Positions 1,492 to 36,825 of a stretch of 64,000 bases of DNA are shown piece by piece. A program made the position numbers and the translations under genes. The DNA is from the human T2T-CHM13v2.0 reference genome, Homo sapiens. The notes under the pieces were generated by a model. That model was not told the DNA's origin. It saw only the letters and a list, made by a program, of their open reading frames with translations, and searched no databases. The stretch spans positions 576,001 to 640,000 of the forward strand of contig CP068257.2 in assembly GCA_009914755.4 (NCBI GenBank). Direction: 5' to 3'. How positions within the stretch are numbered: position 1 is the stretch's first letter; every line of letters begins with the position of its first letter.

Positions 1492-2045
1492 ATAACTGTT
1501 CTCTAGGATCTGACCACAGGGTGCTTTGTGACATATCCCTGCAATGATCACCCAGGTGATATAACTGTTCTCTAGGATCTGACCACAGGGTGTTTTGTGA
1601 CTTATCCCTGCAATGATCACCCAGGTGATATACCACTTGCCAAGGCTCTGCCTACAGGGGCATTGCAATGTATCTCTGCACTGATCACCTAGGTCTTGTA
1701 ACTCTTTTCTAGGATCTGCCTACAGGGTGCTTTGTGACGTATCCCAGCAAGGATTACCAAGGTGCTGTACCTCTCATCAAGGCTCTGCCTGCAGGCACAT
1801 TGCGATGTATCTCTGCACTGATCACCTAGGTCATGTAACTTTTGTCTACGCTCTGCCTACGATGGCATTGTGACATATCTCTGCACTAATCATCCAATGA
1901 TGTAACTCTTGTCTAGGATCTGCCTAAATTAACTTTGTGACATAACCCTGTAGTGATCATCCAGGTGATGGGGCTTTTGTCTAGGCTCTGCCTAAGGGGG
2001 CATTGTGACATATTTCTGCATTGATCACCCAGGTGGCGAACTCTT

Positions 2046-12871: not shown

Positions 12872-14913
12872 CTCTTGGATCTGCCTATGGGGACATTGTG
12901 ACAAATCTCTGCACTGATCACCCAGGTGATGTAACTGTTGTGTAACCTCTGCCTACAGGGGAATTGTGAGAGATCTCGCCACTGATCACCCAAGTGATGT
13001 AACCATTGTCTAGGCTTTGCGTACAGGGTGCTTTGTGACATACCTTTGCACTGATCACCCAGGTGATGTAACACATCTAAGTTCGGCCTAAAGGAGCTTT
13101 GTGACATATCTCTGCACTGATCACTTAGGGGATGTAACACTTTTATAAGCAGTGCCTACAGGGAATTTTGACGAATCTCTGTACTGATCACCTAGGTGAT
13201 GTAACTCTTGTCTACCCTCTGTCCAACGGGGCATTGTGAAATAACTCTGCACTGATCACCCAGGTGATTCAACTCTTGACTAGGATCTGCCTACAGAGGT
13301 TATTGTGAAATATCTCTGCACTGATAAACTAAGTGGTGTAACCCTTGTCCAAGCTCTGCCTACAGAGGCGTTTTCACATATCCCTGAAGTGATGACAAAG
13401 GTGATGTAACTTTGACTAGGCTTTGCCTACAGGGGACATTGGATATATATCTGCACTGATCACCCAGGTGATGCAACTCTTGCTTAGGCTTTGCCTACAG
13501 GGGACATTATGACATATCTCTTCAATGATCTCCCATGTGATGCAACTCTTGCCTAGGCTTTGCCTACAGGGGACATTGTGACATATCTCTGCACTGATCT
13601 CCCAGGGGTTGTAACTTTAGTCTAGGCTCTGGCTACACGGCATTGTGACATATCACTGCACTGATCAACCAGGTGATATAACTCTTGTCTAGGCTCTGCC
13701 TCCAGGGGGCTTGTGACATATCTCTGCACTGATCACCCAGGTGATATAACTCTTCTCTAGGATCTGCCTACAGGGTGCTTTGTGACATATCCCTGCACTG
13801 ATCACCCAGGTGATCTAACACTGGTCTAAGCTCTGCCTAAAGGGGCATTGTGACAGATCTCTGCACTGATCACTCAGGTGATGTAACTGTTGTCTAGGCT
13901 CTGCTTAAAGAGGCCTTGTCACATATCTCTGCACTGGTCACCCAGGTGATGTAACTCTTGTCTAGGCTCTGCTTCCAGGGCATATTGTGACATATCTATG
14001 CACTGATCACCTTAGTGATGTAACCCTTGTGTAGGCTCGGCCTACAGGGGAATCTTGACCTATCTCTGCACTGCTAACCGAGGTGATTTCACTCTTGGGT
14101 AGGCTGTGCCCACAGGGGGATTGAGACATATCTCTGCACTGATCCCGAAGTGATCCAACTCTTGCCTGGTCTCTGCCTACTAGGGACATTGTGACATATC
14201 TCTGTACTGATCTCCCAGGTGCTGTAACATTAGTCTAGGCTCTGGCTACACGGCATTGTGACATACCTCTGCACTGATCACCCACGTGATGTAACTCTTG
14301 CCTAGGCTCTGCCTACAATGGTCTTGTGACATATCTCTGCACTGATCTCCCAGGTGATATAACTGTTCTCTAGCATCTGACCACAGGGTGCTTTGTGACA
14401 TATCCCTGCAATGATCACCCAGGTGATATAACTGTTCTCTAGGATCTGACCACAGGGTGTTTTTTGACTTATCCCTGCAATGATCACCCAGGTGATATAC
14501 CACTTGCCAAGGCTCTGCCTACAGGGGCATTGCAATGTATCTCTGCACTGATCACCTAGGTCTTGTAACTCTTTTCTAGGATCTGCCTACAGGGTGCTTT
14601 GTGACGTATCCCAGCAAGGATTACCCAGGTGCTGTACCTCTCATCAAGGCTCTGCCTGCAGGCACATTGCGATGTATCTCTGCACTGATCACCTAGGTCA
14701 TGTAACTTATGTCTACGCTCTGCCTACGATGGCATTGTGACATATCTCTGCACTAATCATCCAAGTGATGTAACTCTTGTCTAAGATCTGCCTAAATTAA
14801 CTTTGTGACATAACCCTGTAGTAATCATCCAGGTGATGGGGCTTTTGTCTAGGCTCTGCCTAAGGGGGCATTGTGACATATTTCTGCATTGATCACCCAG
14901 GTGGCGAACTCTT
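12872..14913. repeat. HOR copy 8 (30-mer, 2042 bp)
   Basis: Marker spacing. Shares the private variant ttcactcttgggtaggctgtg with copy 9. Confidence 0.8.
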
Positions 14914-16955
14914 CTCTTGGATCTGCCTATGGGGGCATTGTGACAAATCTCTGCACTGATCACCCAGGTGATGTAACTGTTGTGTAACCTCTGCCTACAG
15001 GGGAATTGTGAGAGATCTCGCCACTGATCACCCAAGTGATGTAACCATTGTCTAGGCTTTGCGTACAGGGTGCTTTGTGACATACCTTTGCACTGATCAC
15101 CCAGGTGATGTAACACATCTAAGTTCGGCCTAAAGGAGCTTTGTGACATATCTCTGCACTGATCACTTAGGGGATGTAACACTTTTATAAGCACTGCCTA
15201 CAGGGAATTTTGACGAATCTCTGCACTGATCACCTAGGTGATGTAACTCTTGTCTACCCTCTGTCCAACGGGGCATTGTGAAATATCTCTGCACTGATCA
15301 CCCAGGTGATTCAACTCTTGACTAGGATCTGCCTACAGAGGTTATTGTGAAATATCTCTGCACTGATAAACTAAGTGGTGTAACCCTTGTCCAAGCTCTG
15401 CCTACAGGGGCGTTTTCACATATCCCTGAAGTGATGACAAAGGTGATGTAACTTTGCCTAGGCTTTGCCTACAGGGGACATTGGATATATGTCTGCACTG
15501 ATCACCCAGGTGATGCAACTCTTGCTTAGGCTTTGCCTACAGGGGACATTGTGACATATCTCTTCAATGATCTCCTATGTGATGCAACTCTTGCCTAGGC
15601 TTTGCCTACAGGGGACATTGTGACATATCTCTGCACTGATCTCCCAGGGGCTGTAACTTTAGTCTAGGCTCTGGCTACACGGCATTGTGACATATCACTG
15701 CACTGATCAACCAGGTGATATAACTCTTGTCTAGGCTCTGCCTCCAGGGGGCTTGTGACATATCTCTGCACTGATCACCCAGGTGATATAACTCTTCTCT
15801 AGGATCTGCCTACAGGGTGCTTTGTGACATATCCCTGCACTGATCACCCAGGTGATCTAACACTGGTCTAAGCTCTGCCTAAAGGGGCATTGTGACAGAT
15901 CTCTGCACTGATCACTCAAGTGATGTAACTGTTGTCTAGGCTCTGCTTAAAGAGTCCTTGTCACATATCTCTGCACTGGTCACCCAGGTGATGTAACTCT
16001 TGTTTAGGCTCTGCTTCCAGGGCATATTGTGACATATCTATGCACTGATCACCTTAGTGATGTAACCCTTGTGTAGGCTCGGCCTACAGGGGAATCTTGA
16101 CCTATCTCTGCACTGCTAACCGAGGTGATTTCACTCTTGGGTAGGCTGTGCCCACAGGGGGATTGAGACATATCTCTGCACTGATCCCGAAGTGATCCAA
16201 CTCTTGCCTGGTCTCTGCCTACTAGGGACATTGTGACATATCTCTGCCCTGATCTCCCAGGTGCTGTAACTTTAGTCTAGGCTCTGGCTACACGGCATTG
16301 TGACATACATCTGCACTGATCACCCACGTGATGTAACTCTTGCCTAGGCTCTGCCTACAATGGTCTTGTGACATATCACTGCACTGATCACCCAGGTGAT
16401 ATAACTGTTCTCTAGCATCTGACCACAGGGTGCTTTGTGACATATCCCTGCAATGATCACCCAGGAGATATAACTGTTCTCTGGGATCTGACCACAGGGT
16501 GTTTTTTGACTTATCCCTGCAATGATCACCCAGGTGATATAACACTTGCCAAGGCTCTGCCTACAGGGGCATTGCAATGTATCTCTGCACTGATCACCTA
16601 GGTCTTGTAACTCTTTTCTAGGATCTGCCTACAGGGTGCATTGTGACGTATCCCAGCAAGGATTACCCAGGTGCTGTACCTCTCATCAAGGCTCTGCCTG
16701 CAGGCACATTGCGATGTATCTCTGCACTGATCACCTAGGTCATGTAACTTTTGTCTACGCTCTGCCTACGATGGCACTGTGACATATCTCTGCACTAATC
16801 ATCCAAGTGATGTAACTCTTGTCTAAGATCTGCCTAAATTAACTTTGTGACATAACCCTGTAGTAATCATCCAGGTGATGGGGCTTTTGTCTAGGCTCTG
16901 CCTAAGGGGGCATTGTGACATATTTCTGCATTGATCACCCAGGTGGCGAACTCTT
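14914..16955. repeat. HOR copy 9 (30-mer, 2042 bp)
   Basis: Marker spacing. Confidence 0.8.
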
Positions 16956-18997
16956 CTCTTGGATCTGCCTATGGGGGCATTGTGACAAATCTCTGCACTG
17001 ATCACCCAGGTGATGTAACTGTTGTGTAACCTCTGCCTACAGGGGAATTGGGAGAGATCTCGCCACTGATCACCCAAGTGATGTAACCATTGTCTAGGCT
17101 TTGCGTACAGGGTGCTTTGTGACATACCTTTGCACTGATCACCCAGGTGATGTAACACATCTAAGTTCGGCCTAAAGGAGCTTTGTGACATATCTCTGCA
17201 CTGATCACTTAGGTGATGTAACACTTTTGTAAGCACTGTCTACAGGGAATTTTGACGAATCTCTGCACTGATCACCTAGGTGATGTAACTCTTGTCTACC
17301 CTCTGTCCAACGGGGCATTGTGAAATATCTCTGCACTGATCACCCAGGTGATTCAACTCTTGACTAGGATCTGCCTACAGAGGTTATTGTGAAATATCTC
17401 TTCACTGATAAACTAAGTGGTGTAACCCTTGTCCAAGCTCTGCCTACAGGGGCGTTTTCACATATCCCTGAAGTGATGACAAAGGTGATGTAACTTTGCC
17501 TAGGCTTTGCCTACAGGGGACAATGGACATATATCTGCACTGATCACCCAGGTGATGCAATTCTTGCCTAGGCTTTGCCTACAGGGGACATTGTGACATA
17601 TCTCTTCAATGATCACCGTTGTGATGCAACTCTTGCCTAGGCTTTGCCTACAGGGGACATTGTGACATATCTCTGCACTGATCTCCCAGGGGCTGTAACT
17701 TTAGTCTAGGCTCTGGCTACACGGCATTGTGACATATCACTGCACTGATCAACCAGGTGATATAACTCTTGTCTAGGCTCTGCCTCCAGGGGGCTTGTGA
17801 CATATCTCTGCACTGATCACCCAGGTGATATAACTCTTCTCTAGGATCTGCCCACAGGGTGCTTTGTGACATATCCCTGCACTGATCACCCAGGTGATCT
17901 AACACTGGTCTAAGCTCTGCCTAAAGGGGCATTGTGACAGATCTCTGCACTGATCACTCAGGTGATGTAACTGTTGTCTAGGCTCTGCTTAAAGAGGCCT
18001 TGTCACATATCTCTGCACTGGTCACCCAGGTGATGTAACTCTTGTCTAGGCTCTGCTTCCAGGGCATATTGTGACATATCTATGCACTGATCACCTTAGT
18101 GATGTAACCCTTGTGTAGGCTCGGCCTACAGGAGAATCTTGACCTATCTCTGCACTACTAACCGAGGTGATTTCACTCTTGTGTAGGCTGTGCCCACAGG
18201 GGGATTGAGACATATCTTTGCACTGATCCCGAAGTGATCCAACTCTTGCCTGGTCTCTGCCTACTAGGGACATTGTGACATATCTCTGCACTGATCTCCC
18301 AGGTGCTGTAACTTTAGTCTAGGCTCTGGCTACACGGCATTGTGACATACCTCTGCACTGATCACCCACGTGATGTAACTCTTGCCTAGGCTCTGCCTAC
18401 AATGGTCTTGTGACATATCTCTGCACTGATCACCCAGGTGATATAACTGTTCTCTAGCATCTGACCACAGGGTGCTTTGTGACATATCCCTGCAATGATC
18501 ACCCAGGTGATATAACTGTTCTCTAGGATCTGACCACAGGGTGTTTTGTGACTTATCCCTGCAATGATCACCCAGGTGATATACCACTTGCCAAGGCTGT
18601 GCCTACAGGGGCATTGCAATGTATCTCTGCACTGATCACCTAGGTCTTGTAACTCTTTTCTAGGATCTGCCTACAGGGTGCTTTGTGACGTATCCCAGCA
18701 AGGATTACCCAGGTGCTGTACCTCTCATCAAGGCTCTGCCTGCAGGCACATTGCGATGTATCTCTGCACTGATCACCTAGGTCATGTAACTTTTGTCTAC
18801 GCTCTGCCTACGATGGCATTGTGACATATCTCTGCACTAATCATCCAAGTGATGTAACTCTTGTCTAAGATCTGCCTAAATTAACTTTGTGACATAACCC
18901 TGTAGTAATCATCCAGGTGATGGGGCTTTTGTCTAGGCTCTGCCTAAGGGGGCATTGTGACATATTTCTGCATTGATCACCCAGGTGGCGAACTCTT
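16956..18997. repeat. HOR copy 10 (30-mer, 2042 bp)
   Basis: Marker spacing. Confidence 0.8.
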
Positions 18998-20970
18998 CTC
19001 TTGGATCTGCCTATGGGGGCATTGTGACAAATCTCTGCACTGATCACCCAGGTGATGTAACTGTTGTGTAACCTCTGCCTACAGGGGAATTGGGAGAGAT
19101 CTCGCCACTGATCTCCCAAGTGATGTAACCATTGTCTAGGCTTTGCGTACAGGGTGCTTTGTGACATACCTTTGCACTGATCACCCAGGTGATGTAACAC
19201 ATCTAAGTTCGGCCTAAAGGAGCTTTGTGACATACCTCTGCACTCATCACTTACGTGATGTAACACTTTTATAAGCACTGCCTACAGGGAATTTTGACAA
19301 ATCTCTGCACTGATCACCTAGGTGATGTAACTCTTGTCTACCCTCTGTCCAACGGGGCATTGTGAAATATCTCTGCACTGATCACCCAGGTGATTCAACT
19401 CTTGACTAGGATCTGCCTACAGAGGTTATTGTGAAATATCTCTGCACTGATAAACTAAGTGGTGTAACCCTTGTCAAAGCTCTGCCTACAGGGGCGTTTT
19501 CACATATCCCTGAAGTGATGAGAAAGGTGATGTAACATTGCCAAGGGTTTGCCTACAGGGGACATTGGACATATATCTGCACTGACCACCCAGGTGATGC
19601 AACTCTTGCCTAGGCTTTGCCTACAGGGGACAGTGTGACATATCTCCGCACTGATCTCCCAGGGGCTGTAACTTTAGTCTAGGCTCTGGCTACACGGCAT
19701 TGTGACATATCACTGCACTGATCAACCAGGTGATATAACCCTTGTCTAGCCTCTGCCTCCAGGGGGCTTGTGACATATCTCTGCACTGATCACCCAGGTG
19801 ATATAACTCTTCTCTAGGATCTGCCTACAGGGTGCTTTGTGACATATCCCTGCACTGATCACCCAGGTGATCTAACACTGGTCTAAGCTCTGCCTAAAGG
19901 GGCATTGTGACAGATCTCTGCACTGATCACTCAGGTGATGTAACTGTTGTCTAGGCTCTGCTTAAAGAGGTCTTGTCACATATCTCTGCACTGGTCACCC
20001 AGGTGATGTAACTCTTGTCTAGGCTCTGCTTCCAGGCCATATTGTAACATATCTATGCACTGATCACCTTAGTGATGTAACACTTGTGTAGGCTCGGCCT
20101 ACAGGGGAATCTTGACCTATCTCTGCACTGTTAACCGAGGTGATTTAACTCTTGTCTAGGCTGTGCCCACAGGGGGATTGAGACATATCTCTGCACTGAT
20201 CCCGAAGTGATCCAAATCTTGCCTGGTCTCTGCCTACTAGGGACATTGTGACATATCTCTGCACTGATCTCCCAGGTGCTGTAACTTTAGTCTAGGCTCT
20301 GGCTACACGGCATTGTGACATATCTCTGCACTGATCACCCACGTGATGTAACTCTTGCCTAGGCTCTGCCTACAATGGTCTTGTTACATATCTCTGCACT
20401 GATCACCCAGGTGGTATAACTGTTCTCTAGGATCTGACCACAGGGTGCTTTGTGACATATCCCTGCAATGATCACCCAGGTGATATAACTGTTCTCTAGG
20501 ATCTGACCACAGGGTGTTTTGTGACTTATCCCTACAATGATCACCCAGGTGATATTCCACTTGCCAAGGCTCTGCCTACAGGGGCATTGCAATGTGTCTC
20601 TGCACTGATCACCTAGGTCTTGTAACTCTTTTCTAGGATCTGCCTACAGGGTGCTTTGTGACGTATCCCAGCAAGGATTACTCAGGTGCTGTACCTCTCA
20701 TCAAGGCTCTGCCTGCAGGCACATTGCGATGTATCTCTGCACTGATCACCTAGGTAGTGTAACTTTTGTCTACGCTCTGCCTACGATGGCATTGTGACAT
20801 ATCTCTGCACTAGTCATCCAAATTATGTAACTCTTGTCTAGGATCTGCCTAAATTAACTTTGTGACATAACCCTGTAGTGATCATCCAGGTGATGGGGCT
20901 TTTGTCTAGGCTCTGCCTAAGGGGGCATTGTGACATATTTCTGCATTGATCACCCAGGTGGCGAACTCTT
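18998..20970. repeat. HOR copy 11 (29-mer, 1973 bp; one monomer lost at about 19645)
   Basis: Marker spacing 1973. The junction gacagtgtgacatatctccgcactgatctcccagg lacks the cttcaatgatcacccatgtgatgcaac monomer. Confidence 0.8.
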
Positions 20971-23012
20971 CTCTCGGATCTGCCTATGGGGGCATTGTGA
21001 AAAATCTCTGCACTGATCACCCAGGTGATGTAACTGTTGTGTAACCTCTGCCTACAGGGGAATTGTGAGAGATCTCGCCACTGATCACCCAAGTGATGTA
21101 ACCATTGTCTAGGCTTTGCGTACAGGGTGCTTTGGGACATACCTTTGCACTGATCACCCAGGTGATGTAACACATCTAAGTTCGGCCTAAAGGAGCTTTG
21201 TGACATATCTCTGCACTCATCACTTAGGTGATGTAACACTTTTATAAGCACTGCCTACAGGGAATTTTGACGAATCTCTGCACTGATCACCTAGGTGATG
21301 TAACTCTTGTCTACCCTCTGTCCAACGGGGCATTGTGAAATATCTCTGCACTGATCACCCAGGTGATTCAACTCTTGACTAGGATCTGCCTACAGAGGTT
21401 ATTGTGAAATATCTCTGCACTGATAAACTAAGTGGTGTAACCCTTGTGCAAGCTCTGCCTACAGGGGCGTTTTCACATATCCCTGAAGTGATGACAAAGG
21501 TGATGTAACTTTGTCTAGGCTTTGCCTACAAGGGACATTGGACATATATCTACACTGATCACACAGGTGATGCAACTCTTGCCTAGGCTTTGCCTACAGG
21601 GGACATTGTGACATATCTCTTCAATGATCACCCATGTGATGCAACTCTTGCCTAGGCTTTGCCTACAGGGGACATTGTGACATATCTCTGCACTGTTCTC
21701 CCAGGGGCTGTAACTTTAGTCGAGGCTCTGGCTACACGGCATTGTGACATGTCACTGCACTGATCAACCAGGTGATATAACTCTTGTCTAGGCTCTGCCT
21801 CCAGGGGGCTTGTGACATATTTCTGCACTGATCACCCAGGTGATATAACTCTTCTCTAGGATCTGCCTACAGGGTGCTTTGTGACATATCCCTGCACTGA
21901 TCACCCAGATGATCTAACACTGGTCTAAGCTCTGTCTAAAAGGGCATTGTGACAGATCTCTGCACTGATCACTCAGGTGATGTAACTGTTGTCTATTCTC
22001 TGCTTAAAGAGGCCTTGTCACATATCTCTGCACTGGTCACCCAGGTGATGTAACTCTTGTCTAGGCTCTGCTTCCAGGGCATATTGTGACATATCTATGC
22101 ACTGATCACCTTAGTGATGTAACCCTTGTGTAGGCTCGGCCTACAGGGGAATCTTGACCTATCTCTGCACTGTTAACCGAGGTGATTTAACTCTTGTCTA
22201 GGCTGTGCCCACAGGGGGATTGAGACATATCTCTGCACTGATCCCGAAGTGATCCAACTCTTGCCTGGTCTCTGCCTACTAGGGACATTGTGACATATCT
22301 CTGCACTGATCTCCCAGGTGCTGTAAATTTAGTCTAGGCTCTGGCTACACGGCATTGTGACATATCTCTGCACAGATCACCCACGTGATGTAACTCGTGC
22401 CTAGGCTCTGCCTACAATGCTCTTGTGACATATCTCTGCACTGATCACCCAGGTGATATAACTGTTCTCTAGGATCTGACCACAGGGTGCTTTGTGACAT
22501 ATCCCTGCAATGATCACCCAGGTGATATAACTGTTCTCTAGGATCTGACCACAGGGTGTTTTGTGACTTATCCCTGCAATGATCACCCAGGTGATATAAC
22601 ACTTGCCAAGGCTCTGCCTACAGGGGAATTGCAATGTATCTCTGCACTGATCACCTAGGTCTTGTAACTCTTTTCTAGGATCTGCCTACAGGGTGCTTTG
22701 TGACGTATCCCAGCAAGGATTACTCAGGTGCTGTACCTCTCATCAAGGCTCTGCCTGCAGGCACATTGCTATGTATCTCTGCACTGATCACCTAGGTCAT
22801 GTAACTTTTGTCTAGGCTCTGCCTACGATGGCATTGTGACCTATCTCTGCACTAATCATCCAAGTGATGTAGCTCTTGTCTAGGATCTGCCTAAATTAAC
22901 TTTGTGACATAACCCTGTAGTGATCATCCAGGTGATGGGGCTTTTGTCTAGGCTCTGCCTAAGGGGGCGTTGTGACATATTTCTGCATTGATCACCCAGG
23001 TGGCGAACTCTT
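20971..23012. repeat. HOR copy 12 (30-mer, 2042 bp)
   Basis: Marker spacing. Confidence 0.8.
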
Positions 23013-25054
23013 CTCTTGGATCTGCCTATAGGGGCATTGTGACAAATCTCTGCACTGATCACCCAGGTGATGTAACTGTTGTGTAACCTCTGCCTACAGG
23101 GGAATTGGGAGAGATCTCGCCACTGATCACCCAAGTGATGTAACCATTGTCTAGGCTTTGCGTACAGGGTGCTTTGTGACATACCTTTGCACTGATCACC
23201 CAGGTGATGTAACACATCTAAGTTCGGCCTAAAGGAGCTTTGTGACATATCTCTGCACTCATCACTTAGGTGATGTAACACTTTTATAAGCACTGCCTAC
23301 AGGGAATTTTGACGAATCTCTGCACTGATCACCTAGGTGATGTAACTCTTGTCTACCCTCTGTCCAACGGGGCATTGTGAAATATCTCTGCACTGATCAC
23401 CCAGGTGATTCAACTCTTGACTAGGATCTGCCTACAGAGGTTATTGTGAAATATCTCTGCACTGATAAACTAAGTGGTGTAACCCTTGTCCAAGCTCTGC
23501 CTACAGGGGCGTTTTCACATATCCCTGAAGTGATGACAAAGGTGATGTAACTTTGCCTAGGCTTTGCCTAAAGGGGACATTGGACATATATCTGCACTGA
23601 TCACCCAGGTGATGCAACTCTTGCCTAGGCTTTGCCTACAGGGGACATTGTGACATATCTCTTCAATGATCACCCATGTGATGCAACTCTTACCTAGGCT
23701 ATGCCTACAGGGGACATTTTGACATATCTCTGTACTGATCTCCCATGGGCTGTAACTTTAGTCTAGGCTCTGGCTACACGGCATTGTGACATATCACTGC
23801 ACTGATCAACCAGGTGATATAACTCTTGTCTAGGCTCTGCCTCCAGGGGGCTTGTGACATATCTCTGCACAGATCACCCAGGTGATATAACTCTTCTCTA
23901 GGATCTGCCTACAGGGTGCTTTGTGACATATCCCTGCACTGATCACCCAGGTGATCTAGCACTGGTCTATGCTCTGCCTAAAGGGGAATTGTGACAGATC
24001 TCTGCACTGATCACTCAGGTGATGTAACTGTTGTCTATTCTCTGCTTAAAGAGGCCTTATCACATATCTCTGCACTGGTCACCCAGGTGATGTAACTCTT
24101 GTCTAGGCTCTGCTTCCAGGGCATATTGTGACATATCTATGCACTGATCACCTTAGTGATGTAACCCTTGTGTAGGCTCGGCCTACAGGGGAATCTTGAC
24201 CTATCTCTGCACTGTTAACCGAGGTGATTTAACTCTTGTCTAGGCTGTGCCCACAGGGGGATTGAGACATATCTCTGCACTGATCCCGAAGTGATCCAAC
24301 TCTTGCCTGGTCTCTGCCTACTAGGGACATTGTGACATATCTCTGCACTGATCTCCCAGGTGCTGTAAATTTAGTCTAGGCTCTGGCTACACGGCATTGT
24401 GACATATCTCTGCACAGATCACCCACGTGATGTAACTCGTGCCTAGGCTCTGCCTACAATGCTCTTGTGACATATCTCTGCACTGATCACCCAGGTGATA
24501 TAACTGTTCTCTAGGATCTGACCACAGGGTGCTTTGTGACATATCCCTGCAATGATCACCCAGGTGATATAACTGTTCTCTAGGATCTGACCACAGGGTG
24601 TTTTGTGACTTATCCCTGCAATGATCACCCAGGTGATATAACACTTGCCAAGGCTCTGCCTACAGGGGAATTGCAATGTATCTCTGCACTGATCACCTAG
24701 GTCTTGTAACTCTTTTCTAGGATCTGCCTACAGGGTGCTTTGTGACGTATCCCAGCAAGGATTTCTCAGGTGCTGTACCTCTCATCAAGGCTCTGCCTGC
24801 AGGCACATTGCTATGTATCTCTGCACTGATCACCTAGGTCATGTAACTTTTGTCTAGGCTCTGCCTACGATGGCATTGTGACCTATCTCTGCACTAATCA
24901 TCCAAGTGATGTAGCTCTTGTCTAGGATCTGCCTAAATTAACTTTGTGACATAACCCTGTAGTGATCAACCAGGTGATGGGGCTTTTGTCTAGGCTCTGC
25001 CTAAGGGGGCGTTGTGACATATTTCTGCATTGATCACCCAGGTGGCGAACTCTT
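23013..25054. repeat. HOR copy 13 (30-mer, 2042 bp)
   Basis: Marker spacing. It is nearly identical to copy 12 at an offset of 2042 bp and shares many private variants with it. Confidence 0.8.
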
Positions 25055-27094
25055 CTCTTGGATCTGCCTATAGGGGCATTGTGACAAATCTCTGCACTGA
25101 TCACCCAGGTGATGTAACTGTTGTGTAACCTCTGCCTACAGGGGAATTGTGAGAGATCTCGCCACTGATCACCCAAGTGATGTAACCATTGTCTAGGCTT
25201 TGCGTACAGGGTGCTTTGTGACATACCTTTGCACTGATCACCCAGGTGATGTAACACATCTAAGTTCGGCCTAAAGGAGCTTTGTGACATATCTCTGCAC
25301 TCATCACTTAGGTGATGTAACACTTTTATAAGCACTGCCTACAGGGAATTTTGACGAATCTCTGCACTGATCACCTAGGTGATGTAACTCTTGTCTACCC
25401 TCTGTCCAACGGGGCATTGTGAAATATCTCTGCACTGATCACCCAGGTGATTCAACTCTTGACTAGGATCTGCCTACAGAGGTTATTGTGAAATATCTCT
25501 GCACTGATAAACTAAGTGGTGTAACCCCTGTCCAAGCTCTGCCTACAGGGGCGTTTTCACATATCCCTGAAGTGATGACAAAGGTGATGTAACTTTGCCT
25601 AGGCTTTGCCTAAAGGGGACATTGGACATATATCTGCACTGATCACCCAGGTGATGCAACTCTTGCCTAGGCTTTGCCTACAGGGTCATTGTGACATATC
25701 TCTTCAATGATCACCCCTGTGATGCAACTCTTGCCTAGGCTTTGCCTACAGGGGACATTGTGACATATCTCTGTACTGATCTCCCATGGGCTGTAACTTT
25801 AGTCTAGGCTCTGGCTACACGGCATTGTGACATATCACTGCACTGATCAACCAGGTGATATAACTCTTGTCTAGGCTCTGCCTCCAGGGGGCTTGTGACA
25901 TATCTCTGCACAGATCACCCAGGTGATATAACTCTTCTCTAGGATCTGCCTACAGGGTGCTTTGTGACATATCCCTGCACTGATCACCCAGGTGATCTAA
26001 CACTGGTCTATGCTCTGCCTAAAGGGGAATTGTGACAGATCTCTGCACTGATCACTCAAGTGATGTAACTGTTGTCTAGGCTCTGCTTAAAGAGGCCTTG
26101 TCACATATCTCTGCACTGGTCACCCAGGTGATGTAACTCTTGTCTAGGCTCTGCTTCCAGGGCATATTGTGACATATCTATGCACTGATCACCTTAGTGA
26201 TGTAACCCTTGTGTAGGCTCGGCCTACAGGGGAATCTTGACCTATCTCTGCACTGTTAACCGAGGTGATTTAACTCTTGTCTAGGCTGTGCCCACAGGGG
26301 GATTGAGACATATCTCTGCACTGATCCCGAAGTGATCCAACTCTTGCCTAGTCTCTGCCTACTAGGGACATTGTGACATATCTCTGCACTGATCTCCCAG
26401 GTGCTGTAACTTTAGTCTAGGCTCTGGCTACACGGCATTGTGACATATCACTGCACTGATCACCCACGTGATGTAACTCTTGCCTAGGCTCTGCCTACAA
26501 TTGTCTTGTGACATATCTCTGCACTGATCACCCAGGTGATATAACTGTTCTCTAGGATCTGACCACAGGGTGCTTTGTGACATATCCTTGCAATGATCAC
26601 CCAGGTGATATAACTGTTCTCTAGGATCTGACCACAGGGTGTATTGTGACTTATCCCTGCAATGATCACCCAGGTGATATACCACTTGCCAAGGCTCTGC
26701 CTACAGGGGCATTGCAATGTATCTCTGCACTGATCACCTAGGTCTTGTATCTTTTTTCTAGGACCTGCCTACAGGGTGCTTTGTGACGTATCCCAGCAAG
26801 GATTACTCAGGTGTTGTACCTCTCATCAAGGCTCTGCCTGCAGGCACATTGCGATGTATCTCTGCACTGATCACCTAGGTCATGTAACTTTTGTCTACGC
26901 TCTGCCTACGATGGCATTGTGACATATCTCTGCCTAATCATCCAAATGATGTAGCTCTTGTCTAGGATCTGCCTAAATTAACTTTGTGACATAACCCTGT
27001 AGTGATCATCCAGGTGATGGGGCTTTTGATTAGGCTCTGCCTAAGGGGGCATTGTGACATATTTCTGCATTGATCACCCAGGTGGCGAACTCTT
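25055..27094. repeat. HOR copy 14 (30-mer, 2040 bp)
   Basis: Marker spacing. Confidence 0.8.
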
Positions 27095-28523
27095 GTCTCG
27101 GATCTGACTATGGGGGCATTGTGACAAATCTCTGCACTGATCACCCAGGTGATGTAACTGTTGCGTAACCTCTGCCTACAGGGGAATTGTGAGAGATCTC
27201 GCCACTGATCACCCAAGTGATGTAACCATTGTCTAGGCTTTGCGTACAGGGTGCTTTGTGACATACCTTTGCACTGATCACCCAGGTGATGTAACACATC
27301 TAAGTTCGGCCTAAAGGAGCTTTGTGACATATCTCTGCACTCATCACTTAGGTGATGTAACACTTTTATAAGCACTGCCTACAGGGAATTTTGACAAATC
27401 TCTGCACTGATCACCTAGGTGATGTAACTCTTGTCTACCCTCTGTCCAACGGGGCATTGTGAAATATCTCTGCACTGATCACCCAGGTGATTCAACTCTT
27501 GACTAGGATCTGCCTACAGAGTTTATTGTGAAATATTTCTCCACTGATAAACTAAGTGGTGTAACCCTTGCCCATGCTCTGCCTACAGGGGCGTTTTCAC
27601 ATATCCCTGAAGTGATGACAAAGGTGATGTAACTTTGCCTAGGCTTTGCCTACAGGGGACATTGGACATATATCTGCACTGATCACCCAGGTGATGCAAC
27701 TCTTGCCTAGGCTTTGCCTACAGGGGACATTGTGACATATCTCTTCAATGATCACCCATGTGATGCAACTCTTCCCTAGGCTTTGCCTACAGGGGACATT
27801 GTGATATATCCCTGCACTGATCTCCCAGGGGCTGTAACTTTAGTCTAGGCTCTGGCTACACGGCATTGTGACATATCCCTGCACTGATCACCCGCGTGAT
27901 GTAACTCTTGCCTAGGCTCTGCCTACAATGGTCTTGTGACATATCTCTGCACTGATCACCCAGGTGATATAACTGTTCTCTAGGATCTGACCACAGGGTG
28001 CTTTGTGACATATCCCTGCAATGATCACCCAGGTGATATAACTGTTCTCTAGGATCTGACCACAGGGTGTTTTGTGACTTATCCCTGCAATGATCCCCCA
28101 GGTGATATACCACTTGCCAAGGCTCTGCCTACAGGGGCATTGCAATGTGTCTCTGCACTGATCACCTAGGTCTTGTAACTATTTTCTAGGATCTGCCTAC
28201 AGGGTGCTTTGTGACGTATCCCAGCAAGGATTACTCAGGTGCTGTACCTCTCATCAAGGCTCTGCCTGCAGGCACATTGCGATGTATCTCTGCACTGATC
28301 ACCTAGGTCATGTAACTTTTGTCTACGCTCTGCCTACGATGGCATTGTGACATATCTCTGCACTAATCATCCAAGTGATGTAACTCTTGTCTAGGATCTG
28401 CCTAAATTAACTTTGTGACATAACCCTGTAGTGATCATCCAGGTGATGGGGCTTTTATCTAGGCTCTGCCTAAGGGGGCATTGTGACATATTTCTGCATT
28501 GATCACCCAGGTGGCGAACCCTT
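27095..28523. repeat. HOR copy 15 (21-mer, 1429 bp; 9-monomer deletion)
   Basis: Marker spacing 1429. The offset of the ORF pair at 27856/27912 from the marker is 612 bp shorter than in copy 14. Confidence 0.75.
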
Positions 28524-30429
28524 CTCTTGGATCTGCCTATGGGGCATTGTGACAAATCTCTGCACTGATCACCCAGGTGATGTAACTGTTGTGTAACCTC
28601 TGCCTACAGGGGAATTGGGAGAAATCTCGCCACTGATCACCCAAGTGATGTAACCATTGTCTAGGCTTTGCTTACGGGGTGCTTTGTGACATACCTTTGC
28701 ACTGATCACCCAGGTGATGTAACACATCTAAGTTCGGCCTAAAGGAGCTTTGTGACATATCTCTGCACTCATCACTTAGGTGATGTAACACTTTTATAAG
28801 CACTGCCTTCAGGGAATTTTGACGAATGTCTGCACTGATCACCTAGGTGATGTAACTCTTGTCTACCCTCTGTCCAACGGTGCATTATGAAATATCTCTG
28901 CACTGATCACCCAGGTGATTCAACTCTTGACTAGGATCTGCCTACAGAGTTTATTGTGAAATATTTCTGCACTGATAAACTAAGTGGTGTAACCCTTGTC
29001 CAAGCTCTGCCTACAGGGGCGTTTTCACATATCCCTGAAGTGATGACAAAGGTGATGTAACTTTGCCTAGGCTTTGCCTACAGGGGACATTGGACATATA
29101 TCTGCACTGATCACCCAGGTGATGCAACTCTTGCCTAGGCTTTGCCTACAGGGGAAATTGTGACATATCTCTTCAATGATCACCCTTGTGATGCAACTCT
29201 TGCCTAGGCTTTGCCTACAGGGGACATTGTGACATATCTCTGCACTGATCTCCCAGGGGCTGTAACTTTAGTCTAGGCTCTGGCTACACGGCATTGTGAC
29301 ATATCACTGCACTGATCAACCAGGTGATATAACTCTTGTCTAGGCTCTGCCTCCAGGGGGCTTGTGACATATCTCTGCACTGATCACCCAGGTGATATTA
29401 CTCTCCTCTAGGATCTGCCTACAGGGTGCTTTGTGACATATCCCTGCACTGATCACCCAGGTGATCTAACACTGGTCTAAGCTCTGCCTAAAGGGGCATT
29501 TTGACAGATCTCTGCACTGATCGCTCAGGTGATGTAACTGTTGTCTAGGCTCTGCTTAAAGAGGCCTTGTCACATATCTCTGCACTGGTCACCCAGGTGA
29601 TGTAACTCTTGTCTAGGCTCTGCTTCCAGGGCATATTGTGACATATCTATGCACTGATCACCTTAGTGATGTAACCCTTGTGTAGGCTCGGCCTCCAGGG
29701 GAATCTTGACCTATCTCTGCACTGCTAACCGAGGTGATTTAACTCTTGTGTAGGCTGTGCCCACAGGGGGATTGAGACATATCTCTGCACTGATCCCGAA
29801 GTGATCCAACTCTTGCCTGGTCTCTGCCTACTAGGGACATTGTGACATATCTCTGCACTGATCACCCAGGTGATATAACTGTTCTCTAGGATCTGACCAC
29901 AGGGTGCTTTGTGACATATCCCTGCAATGATCACCCAGGTGTTATAACTGTTCTCTAGGATCTGACCACAGGGTGTTTTGTGACTTATCCCTGCAATGAT
30001 CACCCAGGTGATATACCACTTGCCAAGGCTCTGCCTACAGGGGAATTGCAATGTATCTCTGCACTGATCACCTAGGTCTTGTAACTCTTTTCTAGGATCT
30101 GCCTACAGGGTGCTTTGTGATGTATCCCAGCAAGGATTACTCAGGTGCTGTACCTCTCATCAAGGCTCTGCCTGCAGGCACATTGCGATGTATCTCTGCA
30201 CTGATCACCTAGCTCATGTAACTTTTGTCTACGCTCTGCCTACGATGGCATTGTGACATATCTCTGCACTAATCATCCAAATGATGTAACTCTTGTCTAG
30301 GATCTGCCTAAATTAACTTTGTGACATAACCCTGTAGTGATCATCCAGGTGATGGGGCTTTTGTCTAGGCTCTGCCTAAGGGGGCATTGTGACATATTTC
30401 TGCATTGATCACCCAGGTGGCGAACTCTT
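28524..30429. repeat. HOR copy 16 (28-mer, 1906 bp; 2-monomer deletion near 29860)
   Basis: Marker spacing 1906. At 29841-29880 the sequence ctgcactgatc joins directly to acccaggtgatataactgttc, skipping two monomers. Confidence 0.75.
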
Positions 30430-32471
30430 GTCTCGGATCTGCCTATGGGGGCATTGTGACAAATCTCTGCACTGATCACCCAGGTGATGTAACTGTTGTG
30501 TAACCTCTGCCTACAGGGGAATTGTGAGAGATCTCGCCACTGATCACCCAAGTGATGTATCCAGTGTCTAGGCTTTGCGTACAGGGTGCTTTGTGACATA
30601 CCTTTGCACTGATCACCCAGGTGATGTAACACATCTAAGTTCGGCCTAAAGGAGCTTTGTGACATATCTCTGCACTCATCACTTAGGTGATGTAACACTT
30701 TTATAAGCACTGCCTACAGGGAATTTTGACGAATCTCTGCACTGATCACCTAGGTGATGTAACTCTTGTCTACCTTCTGTCCAACGGGGCATTGTGAAAT
30801 ATCTCTGCACTGATCACCCAGGTGATTCAACTCTTGACTAGGATCTGCCTACAGAGGTTATTGTGAAATATCTCTGCACTGATAAACTAAATGGTGTAAA
30901 CCTTGTCCAAGCTCTGCCTACAGGGGCGTTTTCACATATCCCTGAAGTGATGACAAAGGTGATGTAACTTTGCCTAGGCTTTGCCTACAGGGGACATTGG
31001 ACATATATCTACACTGATCACCCAGGTGATGCAACTCTTGCCTAGGCTTTGCCTACAGGGGACATTGTGACATATCTCTTCAATGATCACCCATGTGATG
31101 CAACTCTTGCCTAGGCTTGGCCTACAGGGGACATTGTGTCATATCTCTGCACTGATCTCCCAGGGGCTGTAACTTTAGTCTAGGCTCTGGCTACACGGCA
31201 TTGTGACATATCACTGCACTGATCAACCAGGTGATATAACTCTTGTCTAAGCTCTGCCTCCAGGGGGCTTGTGACATATCTCTGCACTGATCACCCAGGT
31301 GATATAACTCTTCTCTAGGATCTGCCTACAGGGTGCTTTGTGACATATCCCTGCACTGATCACCCAGGTGATCTAACACTGGTCTAAGCTCTGCCTAAAG
31401 GGGCATTGTGACAGATCTCTGCACTGATCACTCAGGTGATGTAACTGTTGTCTAGGCTCTGCTTAAAGAGGCCTTGTTACATATCTCTGCACTGGTCACC
31501 CAGGTGATGTAACTCTTGTCTAGGCTCTGCTTCCAGGGCATATTGTGACATATCTATGCACTGATCACCTTAGTGATGTAACCCTTGTGTAGGCCCGGCC
31601 TACAGGGGAATCTTGACCTATCTCTGCACTGTTAACCGAGGTGATTTAACTCTTGTCTAGGCTGTGCCCACAGGGGGATTGAGACATATCTCTGCACTGA
31701 TCCCGAGGTGATCCAACTCTTGCCTGGTATCTGCCTACTAGGGACATTGTGACATATCTCTGCACTGATCTCCCAGGTGCTGTAACTTTAGTCTAGGCTC
31801 TGGCTACACGGCATTGTGACATATCTCTGCACTGATCACCCACGTGATGTAACTCTTGCCTAGGCTCTGCCTACAATGGTCGTGTGACATATCTCTGCAC
31901 TGATCACCCAGGTGATATAACTGTTCTCTAGGATCTGACCACAGGGTGCTTTGTGACATATCCCTGCAATGATCACCCAGGTGATATAACTGTTCTCTAG
32001 GATCTGAACACAGGGTGTTTTGTGACTTATCCCTGCAATGATCACCCAGGTGATATACCACTTGCCAAGGCTCTGCTTACAGGGGAATTGCAATGTATCT
32101 CTGCACTGATCACCTAGGTCTTGTAACTCTTTTGTAGGATCTGCCTACAGGGTGCTTTGTGACGTATCCCAGCAAGGAGTACTCAGGTGCTGTACCTCTC
32201 ATCAAGGTTCTGCCTGCAGGCACATTGCGATGTATCTCTGCACTGATCACCTAGGTCATGTAACTTTTGTGTACGCTCTGCCTACGATGGCATTGTGACA
32301 TATCTCTGCACTAATCATCCAAGTGATGTAACTCTTGTCTAGGATCTGCCTAAATTAACTTTGTGACATAACCCTGTAGTGATCATCCAGGTGATGGGGC
32401 TTTTGTCTAGGCTCTGCCTAAGGGGGCATTGTGACATATTTCTGCATTGATCACCCAGGTGGCGAACTCTT
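30430..32471. repeat. HOR copy 17 (30-mer, 2042 bp)
   Basis: Marker spacing. Confidence 0.8.
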
Positions 32472-34922
32472 CTCTCGGATCTGCATATGGGGTCATTGTG
32501 ACAAATCTCTGCACTGATCACCCAGGTGATGTAACTGTTGTGTAACCTCTGCCTACAGGGGAATTGTGAGAGATCTCGCCACTGATCACTCAAGTGATGT
32601 AACCATTGTCTAGGCTTTGCTTACAGGGTGCTTTGTGACATACCTTTGCACTGATCACCCAGGTGATGTAACACATCTAAGTTCGGCCTAAAGGAGCTTT
32701 GTGACATATCTCTGCACTCATCACTTAGGTGATGTAACACTTTTATAAGCACTGCCTACAGGGAATTTTGACGAATCTCTGCACTGATCACCTAGGTGAT
32801 GTAACTCTTGTCTACCCTCTGTCCAACGGGGCATTGTGAAATATCTCTGCACTGATCACCCAGGTGATTCAACTCTTGACTAGGATCTGCCTACAGAGGT
32901 TATTGTGACATATTTCTGCACTGATAAACTAAGTGGTGTAACCCTTGTCCAAGCTCTGCCTACAGGGGCGTTTTCACATATCACTGAAGTGATGACAAAG
33001 GTGATGTAACTCTTGCCTAGGCTTTGCCTACAGGGGACATTGGACATATATCTGCACTGCTCACCCAGGTGATGCAACTCTTGCCTAGGCTTTGCCTACA
33101 GGGGACATTGTGACATATCTCTTCAATGATCACCCATGTGATGCAACTCTTGCCTAGGCTTTGCCTACAGGGGACATTGTGACATATCTCTGCACTGATC
33201 ACTTAGGTGATGTAACACTTTTATAAGCACTGCCTACAGGGAATTTTGACGAATCTCTGCACTGATCACCTAGGTGATGTAACTCTTGTCTACCCTCTGT
33301 CCAACGGGGCATTGTGAAATATCTCGGCACTGATCACCCAGGTGATTCAACTCTTGACTAGGATCTGCCTACAGAGTTTATTGTGAAATATCTCTGCACT
33401 TATAAACTAAGTGGTGTAACCCTTATCCTAGCTCTGCCTACAGGGGCGTTTTCACATATCCCTGAAGTGATGACAAAGGTGATGTAAATTTGCCTAGGCT
33501 TTGCCTACAGGGGACATTGGACATATATCTGCACTGATCACCCAGGTGATGCAACTCTTGCCTAGGCTTTGCCTACAGGGGACATTGTGACATATCTCTT
33601 CAATGATCACCCATGTGATGCAACTCTTGCCTAGGCTTTGCCTAGAGGGGACATTGTGACATATCTCTGCACTGACCTCCCAGGGGCTGTAACTTTAGTC
33701 TAGGCTCTGGCTACACGGCATTGTGACATATCACTGCACTGATCAACCAGGTGATATAACTCTTTTCTAGGCTCTGCCTCCAGGGGGCTTGTGACATAAC
33801 ACTGCACTGATCACCCAGGTGATATAACTCTTCTCTAGGATCTGCCTACAGGGTGCTTTGTGACATATCACTGCACTGATCACCCAGGTGATCTAACACT
33901 GGTCTAAGCTCTGCCTAAAGGGGCATTGTGACAGATCTCTGCACTGATCACTCAGGTGATGTAACTGTTGTCTGGGCTCTGCGTAAAGAGGCCTTGTCAC
34001 ATATCTCTGCACTGGTCACCCAGGTGATGTAACTCTTGTCTAGGCTCTGCTTCCAGGGCATATTGTGACAAATCTATGCACTGATCACCTTAGTGATGTA
34101 ACCCTTGTGTAGGCTCGGCCTACAGGGGAATCTTGACCTATCTCTACACTGTTAACCGAGGTGATTTAACTCTTGTCTAGGCAGTGCGGACAGGGGGATT
34201 GAGACATATCTCTGCACTGATCCCGAAGTGATCCAACTCTTGCCTGGTCTCTGCCTACTAGGGACATTGTGACATAACTCTGCACTGATCTCCCAGGTGC
34301 TGTAACTTTAGTCTAGGCTCTGGCTACACGGCATTGTGACATATCTCTGCACTGATCACCCACGTGATGTAACTCTTGCCTAGGCTCTGCCTACAATGGT
34401 CTTGTGACATATCTCTGCACTGATCACCCAGGTGATATAACTGTTCTCTAGGATCTGACCACAGGGTGTTTTGTGACTTATCCCTGCAATGATGACCCAG
34501 GTGATATACCATTTGCCAAGGCTCTGCCTACAGGGGCATTGTAATGTATCTCTGCACTGATCACCTAGGTCTTGTAACTCTTTTCTAGGATCTGCCCACA
34601 GGGTGCCTTGTGACGTATCCCAGCAAGGATTACCCAGGTGATGTACCTCTCATCAAGGCTCTGCCTACAGGCACATTGCGATGTCTCTCTGCACTGATCA
34701 CCTAGGTCATGTAACTTTTGTCTAGGCTCTGCCTACGATGGCATTGTGACATATCTCTGCACTAATCATCCAAGTGATGTAACCATTGTCTAGGATCTGC
34801 CTAAATTAACTTTGTGACATAACCCTGTACTGCTCATCCAGGTGATGGGGCTTTTGTCTAGGCTCTGCCTGAGGGGGCATTGTGACATATTTCTGCATTG
34901 ATCACCCAGGTGGCGAACTCTT
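32472..34922. repeat. HOR copy 18 (36-mer, 2451 bp): transition copy with a 479-bp internal duplication and an A/B mosaic
   Basis: Marker spacing 2451. Block 32702-33180 recurs at 33181-33659. A-type variants persist up to about 34.3 kb. B-type variants (gtgatgtacctc, gcccacagggtgccttgtg, single gaccacaggg monomer) appear from about 34.45 kb. Confidence 0.75.
32702..33659. repeat. 479-bp direct internal duplication (about 7 monomers) inside HOR copy 18
   Basis: gacatatctctgcactcatcacttaggtgatgtaacacttttataagcactgcc... at 32702 recurs at 33181. The first copy ends by joining to acttaggtga at 33200, indicating unequal exchange between homologous monomer segments. Confidence 0.8.
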
Positions 34923-36825
34923 CTCTTGGATCTGCCTATGGGGGCATTGTGACAAATCTCTGCACTGATCACCCAGGTGATGTAACTGTTGTGTAACCTC
35001 TGCCTACAGGGGAATTGTGAGAGATCTCGCCACTGATCACCCAAGTGATGTAACCATTGTCTAGGCTTTGCGTACAGGGGGCTTTGTGACATACCTTTGC
35101 ACTGATCACCCAGGTGATGTAACACATGTAAGTTCGGCCTAAAGGAGCTTTGTGACATATCTCTGCACTGATCACTTGGGTGATGGAACACTTTTATAAG
35201 CATTGCCTACAGGGAATTTTGGCAAATCTCTGCACTGGTCACCTAGGTGATGTAACGCTTGTCTACCCTCTGTCCAACGGGGCATTGTGAAATATCTCTG
35301 CACTGATAACCCAGGTGATTCAACTCTTGACTAGGATCTGCCTACAGAGGTTATTGTGAAATATCTCTGCACTGATAAACTAGGTGGTGTAATCCTTATC
35401 GAAGCTCTGTGTACAGGGGCGTTTTCACATATCCCTGAAGTGATGACAAAGGTGATGTAACTCTTGCCTAGGCTTTGCCTACAGGAGACATAGGACATAT
35501 ATCTGCACTGATCACCCAGGTGATGCAACTCTAGCCTAGGCTTTGCCTACAGGGGACATTGTGACATATCTCCGCTGATCTCCCAGGTGTTGTAACATTA
35601 GTCTAGACCCTGGCTGCACGGCATTGTGACATATCACTGCACTGATCAACCAGGTGATATAACTCTTGTCTAGGCTATGCCTACAGGGGGCTTGTGACAT
35701 ATCTCTGCACTGATCACCCAGGTGATATAACTCTTCTCTAGGATCTGCCTACAGGGTGCTTTGTGACATATCCCTGCAATGATCACCCAGGTGATCTAAC
35801 ACTTGTTTAAGCTCTGCCTAAAGGCGCATTGTGACAGATCTCTGCACTGATCACTCAGGTGATGTAACTATTGCCTAGGCTCTGCTTAAAGGGGCCTTGT
35901 CACATATCTCTGCAATGATCACCCAGGTGATGTAACTCTTGTCTAGCCTCTGCTTTCACGGCATATTGTGACATATCTAGGCGCTGATCACCTTAGTGAT
36001 GTAACACTTGTGTAGGCTCGGCCTACAGGGGAATATTGACAAATCTCTGCACTGTTAAACGAGGTGATTTAACTCTTGTCTAGGCTGTGCCCACAGGGGG
36101 ATTGAGACATATCTCTGCACTGATCCCGAGGTGATCCAACTGTTGCCTGGTCTCTGCCTACTGGGGACATTGTGACATATCTCTGCACTGATCTCCCAGG
36201 TGCTGTAACTTTAGTCTAGGCTCTGGCTACACGGAATTGTGACATATCACTGCACTGATCACCCAGGTGATATAAATCTTGTCTAGGCTCTGCCTACAAT
36301 GGCCTAGTGACATATCTCTGCACTGATCACCCAGGTGATATAACTCTTCTCTAGGATCTGACCACAGGGTGCTTTGTGGCATTTCCCTGCAATGATCACC
36401 CAGGTGATATACCACTTACCAAGGCTCTGCCTACAGGGGCATTGCAATGTATCTCTGCACTGATCACCTCGGTCTTGTAACTCTTTTATAGGATCTGCCC
36501 ACAGGGTGCCTTGTGACGTATCCCAGCAAGGATTACCCAGGTGATGTACCTCTCATCAAGGCTCTGCCTACAGGCACATTGCGATGTATCTCTGCACTGA
36601 TCACCTAGGTCATGTAACTTTTGTCTAGGCTCTGCCTACGATGGCATTGTGACATATCTCTGCACTAATCATCCAAGTGATGTAACCCTTGTCTAGGATC
36701 TGCCTAAAGTAACTTTGTGACATAACCCTGTACTGATCATCCAGGTGATGGGGCTTTTGTCTAGGCTCTGCCTAAGGGGGCATTGTGACATATTTCTGCA
36801 TTGATCACCCAGGTGGCGAACTCTT
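34923..36825. repeat. HOR copy 19 (B-prime 28-mer, 1903 bp)
   Basis: Marker spacing. The junction gacatatctccgctgatctcccagg at about 35570 shows one monomer lost plus a 2-bp deletion. Confidence 0.75.

What the first reader, a model, noticed from the sequence alone, without database searches (positions are those of the whole stretch)
20971..26400. Very recent duplication of a whole HOR unit (copies 12 and 13 share private variants)
About 22.0-24.0 kb and 24.05-26.05 kb carry the same set of rare variants at an offset of exactly 2042 bp. These are gctgtaaatttag, cacagatcacccacgtgatgtaactcgtgcc, caatgctcttgtg, gtagctcttgtctagg, gggggcgttgtgacat, ctataggggcattg, ctcccatgggctgtaac, ctagcactggtctatgctctgcc and aaaggggaattgtgacag. 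All are absent from neighbouring copies. The matching minus-strand ORFs at 22345/24387 and 22401/24443 are identical. Copies 8 and 9 similarly share ttcactcttgggtaggctgtg. This shows ongoing expansion in single-HOR steps.
Basis: seen in the sequence. Interest (0 to 1): 0.5.

Follow-up and report, generated by a model that had tools for sequence, protein, structure and literature searches.

The report
One-unit duplication in beta satellite array
Two neighbouring 2-kb repeat units in a 68-bp (beta-type) satellite array are near-copies of each other, the ordinary footprint of out-of-register recombination in tandem DNA, and not the only or the youngest such pair in this window.

Summary
The whole window is a 68-bp satellite with the features of primate beta (Sau3A) satellite. 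It forms a 30-monomer, 2042-bp higher-order repeat (HOR) at 5.7-27.8 kb and a 29-monomer, 1974-bp variant from 35.9 kb onward.

Units 21987-24028 and 24029-26069 differ by 12 substitutions and 1 indel (99.41% identity). All other 30-mer pairs are 96.5-98.7% identical. The pair shares 17 variants found in no other 30-mer copy; other pairs share 4 or fewer.

- Identity is 99.4%, not 99.8%.
- The offset becomes 2041 after a 1-bp deletion.
- One listed string also occurs in the next copy, and one occurs only once.

The high-identity tract on the +2042 diagonal is 1963-2092 bp long, which brackets one HOR. This favours a one-unit tandem duplication by unequal exchange over a gene-conversion patch, but conversion is not excluded.

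"Very recent" is only relative. A divergence of 0.54% implies roughly 0.5-5 Myr at plausible mutation rates. A second, younger pair exists (47464-49105 vs 49438-51079, 1 mismatch in 1642 bp). Monomer-level and multi-HOR steps are also visible.

This is textbook satellite dynamics, with no gene or RNA involved. Interest is low.

The parts
1..63990 (+). Uninterrupted 68-bp satellite array of beta/Sau3A type: 941 monomers, all in one orientation
   Evidence: TRF gives period 68 and 940 copies. nhmmer finds 941 monomers of 64-69 bp, nearly all 67-69. GATC is present in 84.8% of monomers. GC is 0.46-0.48.
5720..27838 (+). Domain of the 30-monomer HOR (2042 bp). Units start at 5720, 7762, 9804, 11846, 13888, 15930, 17972 (29-mer lacking m25), 19945, 21987, 24029 and 26070 (truncated after m26).
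   Evidence: Autocorrelation peak at 2042. Local best offsets. Monomer-type string.
21987..24028 (+). HOR copy '12' in monomer phase m1-m30
24029..26069 (+). HOR copy '13' (2041 bp; 1-bp deletion opposite 23641)
21946..23987 (+). Inferred first copy of the duplicated one-HOR segment. The left edge lies within 21946-21996.
   Evidence: The last background mismatch on the +2042 diagonal is at 21945. The shared private variants begin at 21996/21997.
23988..26028 (+). Inferred second copy of the duplicated segment. The tract ends between 23959 and 24037 in first-copy coordinates.
   Evidence: At 24038/24039 copy 13 carries the pair-specific variants that copy 14 lacks. Background mismatch density resumes beyond that point.
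23641..23719 (+). Cluster of 6 of the 12 post-split differences, in monomers m25/m26. Three are private to copy 13's m25 (25682-25717) and three are private to copy 12's m26.
   Evidence: Clustering P of about 4e-4 by simulation.
47464..49105 (+). First arm of a second, younger near-identical adjacent pair in the 29-mer domain
   Evidence: 1435-bp exact match 47464/49438. One mismatch (48899) in 1642 bp. Copies 47638/49612 are 99.54% identical.
49438..51079 (+). Second arm of that pair (offset 1974)
35869..63990 (+). Domain of the 29-monomer HOR variant (1970-1974 bp; lacks m9), including a 28-mer unit (35869-37773, 1905 bp) and a 26-mer unit (57506-59275, 1770 bp)

Best explanation
Window 21.9-26.0 kb holds a tandem duplication of exactly one higher-order-repeat length (2042 bp) inside a beta-satellite HOR array.

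Proposed sequence of events (inferred, not shown):
1. One HOR copy accumulated about 17 private substitutions.
2. An out-of-register exchange, offset by one HOR, placed two copies of a 2042-bp segment side by side. The junction lies near the m30/m1 boundary at about 21.95 kb. The exchange could have been unequal sister-chromatid or homologue crossover, or the equivalent template switch during replication or break repair.
3. The two copies then diverged by 11 substitutions and one 1-bp deletion.

The feature has no coding or RNA function. It is a mutational footprint of the ordinary turnover that homogenises satellite arrays.
For: Shown by the sequence:
- The pair is 99.41% identical, against 96.5-98.7% for the other 54 pairs.
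- It shares 17 private variants, against 4 or fewer for any other pair, and has the fewest singletons.
- At most of the 17 sites, two related contigs from elsewhere (L001 and L002) carry the majority state. The shared states are therefore derived.
- The high-identity tract on the +2042 diagonal starts within 21946-21996 and ends within 23959-24037. Its length is 1963-2092 bp, which brackets one period. This is what a one-register unequal exchange predicts.
- 9-10 of the 12 differences are singletons in one of the two copies, as expected for mutation after the split.
- The monomer-level map shows a run of zero-distance monomers only here and at 47.3-49 kb.

Against: - A single haplotype cannot separate a copy-number gain from a full-length gene conversion of one neighbour by the other.
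- Six of the 12 differences are packed into 79 bp (P about 4e-4). Simple independent point mutation after a clean duplication does not predict this.
- The second near-identical pair has a tract of about 1642 bp, shorter than its 1974-bp period. Tracts not equal to one period therefore do occur in this array.
- Read-level support for the assembly could not be checked.
Confidence: 0.68

Rival explanations
1. Gene conversion without a change in copy number. One pre-existing HOR copy was overwritten along essentially its whole length by its neighbour, through non-reciprocal repair using the adjacent unit as template.
For: It gives the same pairwise pattern of shared private variants. The array is visibly mosaic. 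Examples are a 312-bp exact match at 21136/23178 within otherwise 97%-identical copies 11 and 12, and long exact matches at 2-, 4- and 6-HOR offsets. The second pair's tract (1642 bp) is shorter than one period, which suits a conversion tract.
Against: The tract length (1963-2092 bp) coincides with one period. Conversion has no reason to produce that, whereas unequal exchange produces exactly that. From general knowledge, mammalian conversion tracts are usually well below 2 kb.
Confidence: 0.22
2. Assembly artefact: one true copy was represented twice because reads were misplaced in a highly repetitive array.
For: Satellite arrays are prone to mis-assembly. Nothing in the window itself argues for it.
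Against: The two copies differ at 11 substitutions and 1 indel. Most differences are substitutions, not homopolymer indels. A false duplication of the same reads would be essentially identical. Both copies also join their different neighbours (copies 11 and 14) in register.
Confidence: 0.04
3. No specific event: the similarity is chance variation in the identity between neighbouring copies.
For: None beyond the general 97-98.7% similarity of all copies.
Against: The pair lies 4.3 sd above the other 54 pairs. It has 17 shared private variants against a maximum of 4 elsewhere, and 704-bp and 377-bp exact matches.
Confidence: 0.01

Closest known systems
Beta satellite (Sau3A family) HOR arrays of hominoid genomes: pB4-type acrocentric short-arm arrays, and the 1906-bp 28-monomer beta-satellite HOR reported on T2T-CHM13 chr22 and chr15 short arms
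   Same: 68-bp monomer, GATC in most monomers, about 76% inter-monomer identity, and multimeric HORs whose copies are 97-98% alike. The window also contains 28-monomer units of 1905-1907 bp, the size reported in PMC10760446. The family description comes from PMC8125562 and bioRxiv 10.1101/2021.07.12.452052.
   Different: The dominant units here are 30-mers (2042 bp) and 29-mers (1974 bp). No reference primate sequence is available in the tools, so species, chromosome and identity to pB4 or the CHM13 arrays are untested. The only external relatives found are 95.5% and 89% identical.
Local homogenisation and HOR-unit duplication by unequal crossing-over in alpha-satellite HOR arrays (concerted evolution, saltatory amplification)
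   Same: Adjacent units share private variants, the step is an integer HOR, identity is highest between neighbours and decays with distance, and HOR length variants occur within one array. PMC11062924 names the mechanisms.
   Different: This is a different satellite family (68 bp rather than 171 bp) and not a centromere-core array, as far as can be told. The event involves only one unit rather than a large saltatory block.

Membership tests
Beta satellite (Sau3A family) | Tandem monomer of about 68 bp | tested here: met
   TRF gives period 68 and 940 copies. Of the 940 monomer spacings, 937 are 67-69 bp.
Beta satellite (Sau3A family) | Sau3A site (GATC) in nearly every monomer | tested here: met
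   798 of 941 monomers (84.8%) contain GATC. The feature is as described in bioRxiv 10.1101/772921.
Beta satellite (Sau3A family) | Organisation into multimeric higher-order repeats | tested here: met
   30-mer (2042 bp) and 29-mer (1974 bp) HORs, with copies 96.5-99.5% identical against about 76% between monomers.
Beta satellite (Sau3A family) | Sequence identity to a reference beta-satellite consensus (Repbase BSR, pB3 or pB4 clones) | not testable with these tools
   No reference sequence is held, and a text search for part of the consensus found no paper. The match to the BSR consensus rests on my memory only.
Acrocentric short-arm beta-satellite HOR (pB4 type; 1906-bp 28-mer of CHM13 chr22/chr15) | HOR of 28 monomers, about 1906 bp, at least 98% identical to that unit | tested here: inconclusive
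   Units of 1905-1907 bp (28 monomers) occur at 28.0-30.0 kb and 34.0-37.8 kb, but the main units are 30- and 29-mers. Identity to the CHM13 unit cannot be measured here (PMC10760446).
Tandem duplication by one-register unequal exchange | Identity tract on the +1-period diagonal equal to one period | tested here: met
   The tract is 1963-2092 bp against a period of 2042 bp.
Tandem duplication by one-register unequal exchange | The two units share derived variants absent from all other units | tested here: met
   17 shared private sites. Outgroup contigs carry the majority state at most of them.
Tandem duplication by one-register unequal exchange | Copy-number difference of one unit between haplotypes, or a reciprocal deletion product | not testable with these tools
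   No other haplotype of this array is available. The metagenome and genome scans returned only diverged relatives or nothing.

The most novel reading that the evidence does not exclude
The m24-m26 zone of the HOR consists of three consecutive monomers that share an identical 44-bp first half. It may be a recombination and mutation hotspot. Many of the monomer-level rearrangement breakpoints in the window touch m25/m26. Six of the 12 post-duplication differences of pair 12/13 fall there as unique clustered substitutions. The identity tract of the second pair also breaks down in that zone (47133-47463). If this is real, break-induced error-prone repair at a defined site inside the HOR would drive both structural and point variation in beta-satellite arrays.
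Probability: 0.15. Interest if true: 0.35.

Novelty: already known. Interest (0 to 1): 0.1.

Why it matters
The finding matters little on its own. It is a clean, quantified example of single-unit turnover in a beta-satellite HOR array, a family studied far less than alpha satellite. With population long-read assemblies, such pairs could serve as markers to measure rates of unit gain, loss and conversion on the chromosome arms that carry these arrays. Nothing here changes the current understanding of satellite evolution.

Tried and rejected
1. Coding or RNA function. The identical minus-strand ORFs are periodic translations of the satellite with no Pfam match. Rfam finds nothing in 20971-26400. 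Rejected.

2. Other haplotypes of the same array. One degenerate 61-bp m6-specific pattern was scanned against two collections. Metagenome contigs gave two contigs only 95.5% and 89% identical, that is other arrays. They were useful only as outgroups. Prokaryote genome contigs gave nothing.

3. The cluster at 23641-23719 as a conversion patch from another copy in the window. All six states are absent from every other m25/m26 monomer in the window. Rejected for in-window donors.

4. A multi-HOR super-period that could reveal an inserted unit by a register shift. Long exact matches occur at many different multiples (offsets 3948, 4084, 7894, 8168, 9868 and others) with no clean super-period. Not informative.

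5. Technical failures. A first attempt at monomer cutting with Biopython end-gap settings and a blastn self-comparison with unsupported scoring both failed. They were replaced by nhmmer and a k-mer diagonal method.

6. Literature searches for a 2042-bp beta-satellite HOR and for a printed consensus string found nothing. Waye & Willard 1989 is not held.
Full report
**What the window is**

TRF reports one array over 1-63990 with a 68-bp period, 940 copies and 76% matches. Base composition is flat at 46-48% GC. nhmmer with the TRF consensus finds 941 head-to-tail monomers on one strand, and 84.8% of them contain GATC. A 68-bp unit with a Sau3A site in nearly every monomer, organised into multimeric HORs, is how the literature defines primate beta satellite. 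The sources are PMC8125562, bioRxiv 10.1101/2021.07.12.452052 and bioRxiv 10.1101/772921. I could not compare the sequence with a reference consensus or a primate genome. The family assignment therefore rests on these defining features, and species and chromosome are unknown.

**Higher-order structure**

Autocorrelation peaks at 2042 bp. This shows three zones:
- A regular 30-mer domain at 5720-27838. One of its units lacks m25.
- Rearranged units at 1-5.7 kb and 26-35.9 kb.
- A 29-mer (1970-1974 bp) domain from 35869 to the end. It includes one 28-mer unit (1905 bp) and one 26-mer unit (1770 bp).

Within the HOR, m8 and m9 differ by 2 edits. The block m6-m8 also resembles m27-m29 at 5-8 edits, against a mean of 16.4. 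This explains why one-monomer deletions and hybrid monomers are frequent.

A 1906-bp, 28-monomer beta-satellite HOR has been reported on CHM13 chr22 and chr15 short arms (PMC10760446). Units of 1905-1907 bp occur here too. The window may therefore belong to that acrocentric family, but this is untested.

**Checking the observation**

- Variant strings: seven of the nine listed strings occur exactly twice in the window, at offsets 2042 or 2041. GTAGCTCTTGTCTAGG also occurs in the following copy, at 26951. CTAGCACTGGTCTATGCTCTGCC occurs once, because copy 12 has a private G at 23959.
- Identity: a MAFFT alignment of the eleven 30-mer-domain units gives 99.41% for 21987 vs 24029, from 12 substitutions plus a 1-bp deletion opposite 23641. 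The other 54 pairs give 96.50-98.73%, so the pair lies 4.3 sd above them.
- Private variants: the pair shares 17 variants seen in no other unit. The maximum for any other pair is 4. Copies 12 and 13 have 4 and 5 singletons, against 6-27 for the others.
- Polarity: two related contigs recovered from metagenome collections are 95.5% and 89% identical to units of this window. They carry the majority state at most of the 17 sites, so the shared states are derived. It is therefore either recurrent or an old polymorphism.
That simply reflects the 704-bp exact match at 22018/24060. They are periodic satellite translations with no Pfam hit, and Rfam finds nothing either.

**Anatomy of the event**

On the +2042 diagonal, mismatch density is at background (about 2-4 per 100 bp) up to 21945. 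It then drops to 11 substitutions and 1 indel up to 23959. Background density resumes from about 24038.

The first pair-specific variants (21996/21997 = 24038/24039) are present in copies 12 and 13 and absent from copies 11 and 14. The tract therefore begins within 21946-21996 and ends within 23959-24037, giving a length of 1963-2092 bp. A one-register unequal exchange creates two tandem copies of a segment exactly one period long. It thus predicts an identity tract of 2042 bp on this diagonal. A conversion tract has no reason to match the period. This is my main reason for preferring duplication at about 0.68 over conversion at about 0.22. The mechanism step is inferred, not shown.

**What happened after the split**

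Nine or ten of the 12 differences are singletons in one copy. Six of them lie within 79 bp, at 23641-23719. Three are in copy 13's m25 and three in copy 12's m26. Under uniform placement the simulated probability is about 4e-4. None of these states occurs in any other m25 or m26 in the window, so an in-window conversion donor is excluded. I have no firm explanation. Candidates are clustered mutation during repair, or conversion from a copy outside the window.

**How recent**

The ratio of post-split changes (4-5 per copy) to pre-split private changes (17) puts the split at roughly one fifth of the depth of a typical unit lineage.

In absolute terms, 11 substitutions in 2042 bp is 0.54%. I assume a hominid germline rate of about 0.5e-9 per bp per year (established knowledge; the species is an assumption). 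That gives about 5 Myr. With the 4- to 10-fold acceleration suggested for centromeric satellites (PMC11062924), it gives about 0.5-1.3 Myr. 'Very recent' is therefore true only relative to the rest of the 30-mer domain.

**Not unique**

The longest exact repeat in the window is 1435 bp, at 47464/49438 (offset 1974). The tract 47464-49105 has one mismatch in 1642 bp. Units 47638 and 49612 are 99.54% identical, against 95.9-98.5% for other 29-mer pairs. The monomer-level map shows these two runs of zero-distance monomers and no others of comparable length. This second tract is shorter than its period, and its left 330 bp (47133-47463, the m25/m27 zone) is at background divergence.

**Step sizes**

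Mean identity declines with distance between units. In the 30-mer domain it falls from 97.85% at lag 1 to about 97.0-97.2% at lags 7-10. However, several of the most similar pairs are not adjacent:
- 9804 vs 15930: 98.73%, three units apart.
- 51585 vs 55533: 6 shared private variants and a 541-bp exact match at offset 3948.

Monomer-level indels are also common. The array thus evolves by several step sizes. A single haplotype shows gains only.

**Comparison with what is known, and verdict**

Adjacent HOR units that share private variants are the classical expectation for satellite arrays evolving by unequal crossing-over and conversion. The pattern is documented at scale for alpha satellite (PMC11062924). 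Beta-satellite HORs are also known (PMC8125562, PMC10760446). The finding is real, statistically clear and well explained, but ordinary. The novelty class is 'already known' and the interest score is 0.1.

Noticed in passing
window 47464-49105 vs 49438-51079: A second and younger near-identical adjacent pair, in the 29-mer domain. It includes a 1435-bp exact match and has 1 mismatch in 1642 bp. The tract is shorter than the 1974-bp period and breaks down at the m25/m27 zone (47133-47463).
   Followed up: partly
window 23641-23719 (and 25682-25760): Six of the 12 differences between copies 12 and 13 cluster in 79 bp of monomers m25/m26 (P about 4e-4). All six are unique states not found in any other m25/m26 in the window. 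The cause is unexplained.
   Followed up: partly
window 1-5720, 26070-35869, 57506-59276: Monomer-level rearranged HOR units of 26, 28, 29, 36 and 37 monomers. Many breakpoints involve m25/m26 or the paralogous blocks m5-m8 and m26-m29. m8 and m9 differ by only 2 edits, and the 29-mer variant lacks m9.
   Followed up: partly
window 5720-27838 and 35869-63220: The transition/transversion ratio of singleton variants among HOR copies is low: 0.86 in the 30-mer domain and 0.67 in the 29-mer domain. The genome-wide value usual for mammals is about 2 (from general knowledge).
   Followed up: no
L001 (QZLL01010687.1, 1938 bp) and L002 (Ga0115852_105324, 1132 bp): Two contigs in metagenome collections carry the same beta-satellite HOR family, at 95.5% and 89% identity to units of this window. 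They are presumably host or contaminant primate DNA.
   Followed up: partly
window 21136-21447 vs 23178-23489 and 25220-25527: A 308-312-bp stretch is identical in copies 11, 12 and 13, although copies 11 and 12 are otherwise only 97.3% identical. This indicates a mosaic of short shared tracts, probably conversion patches, across neighbouring units.
   Followed up: no
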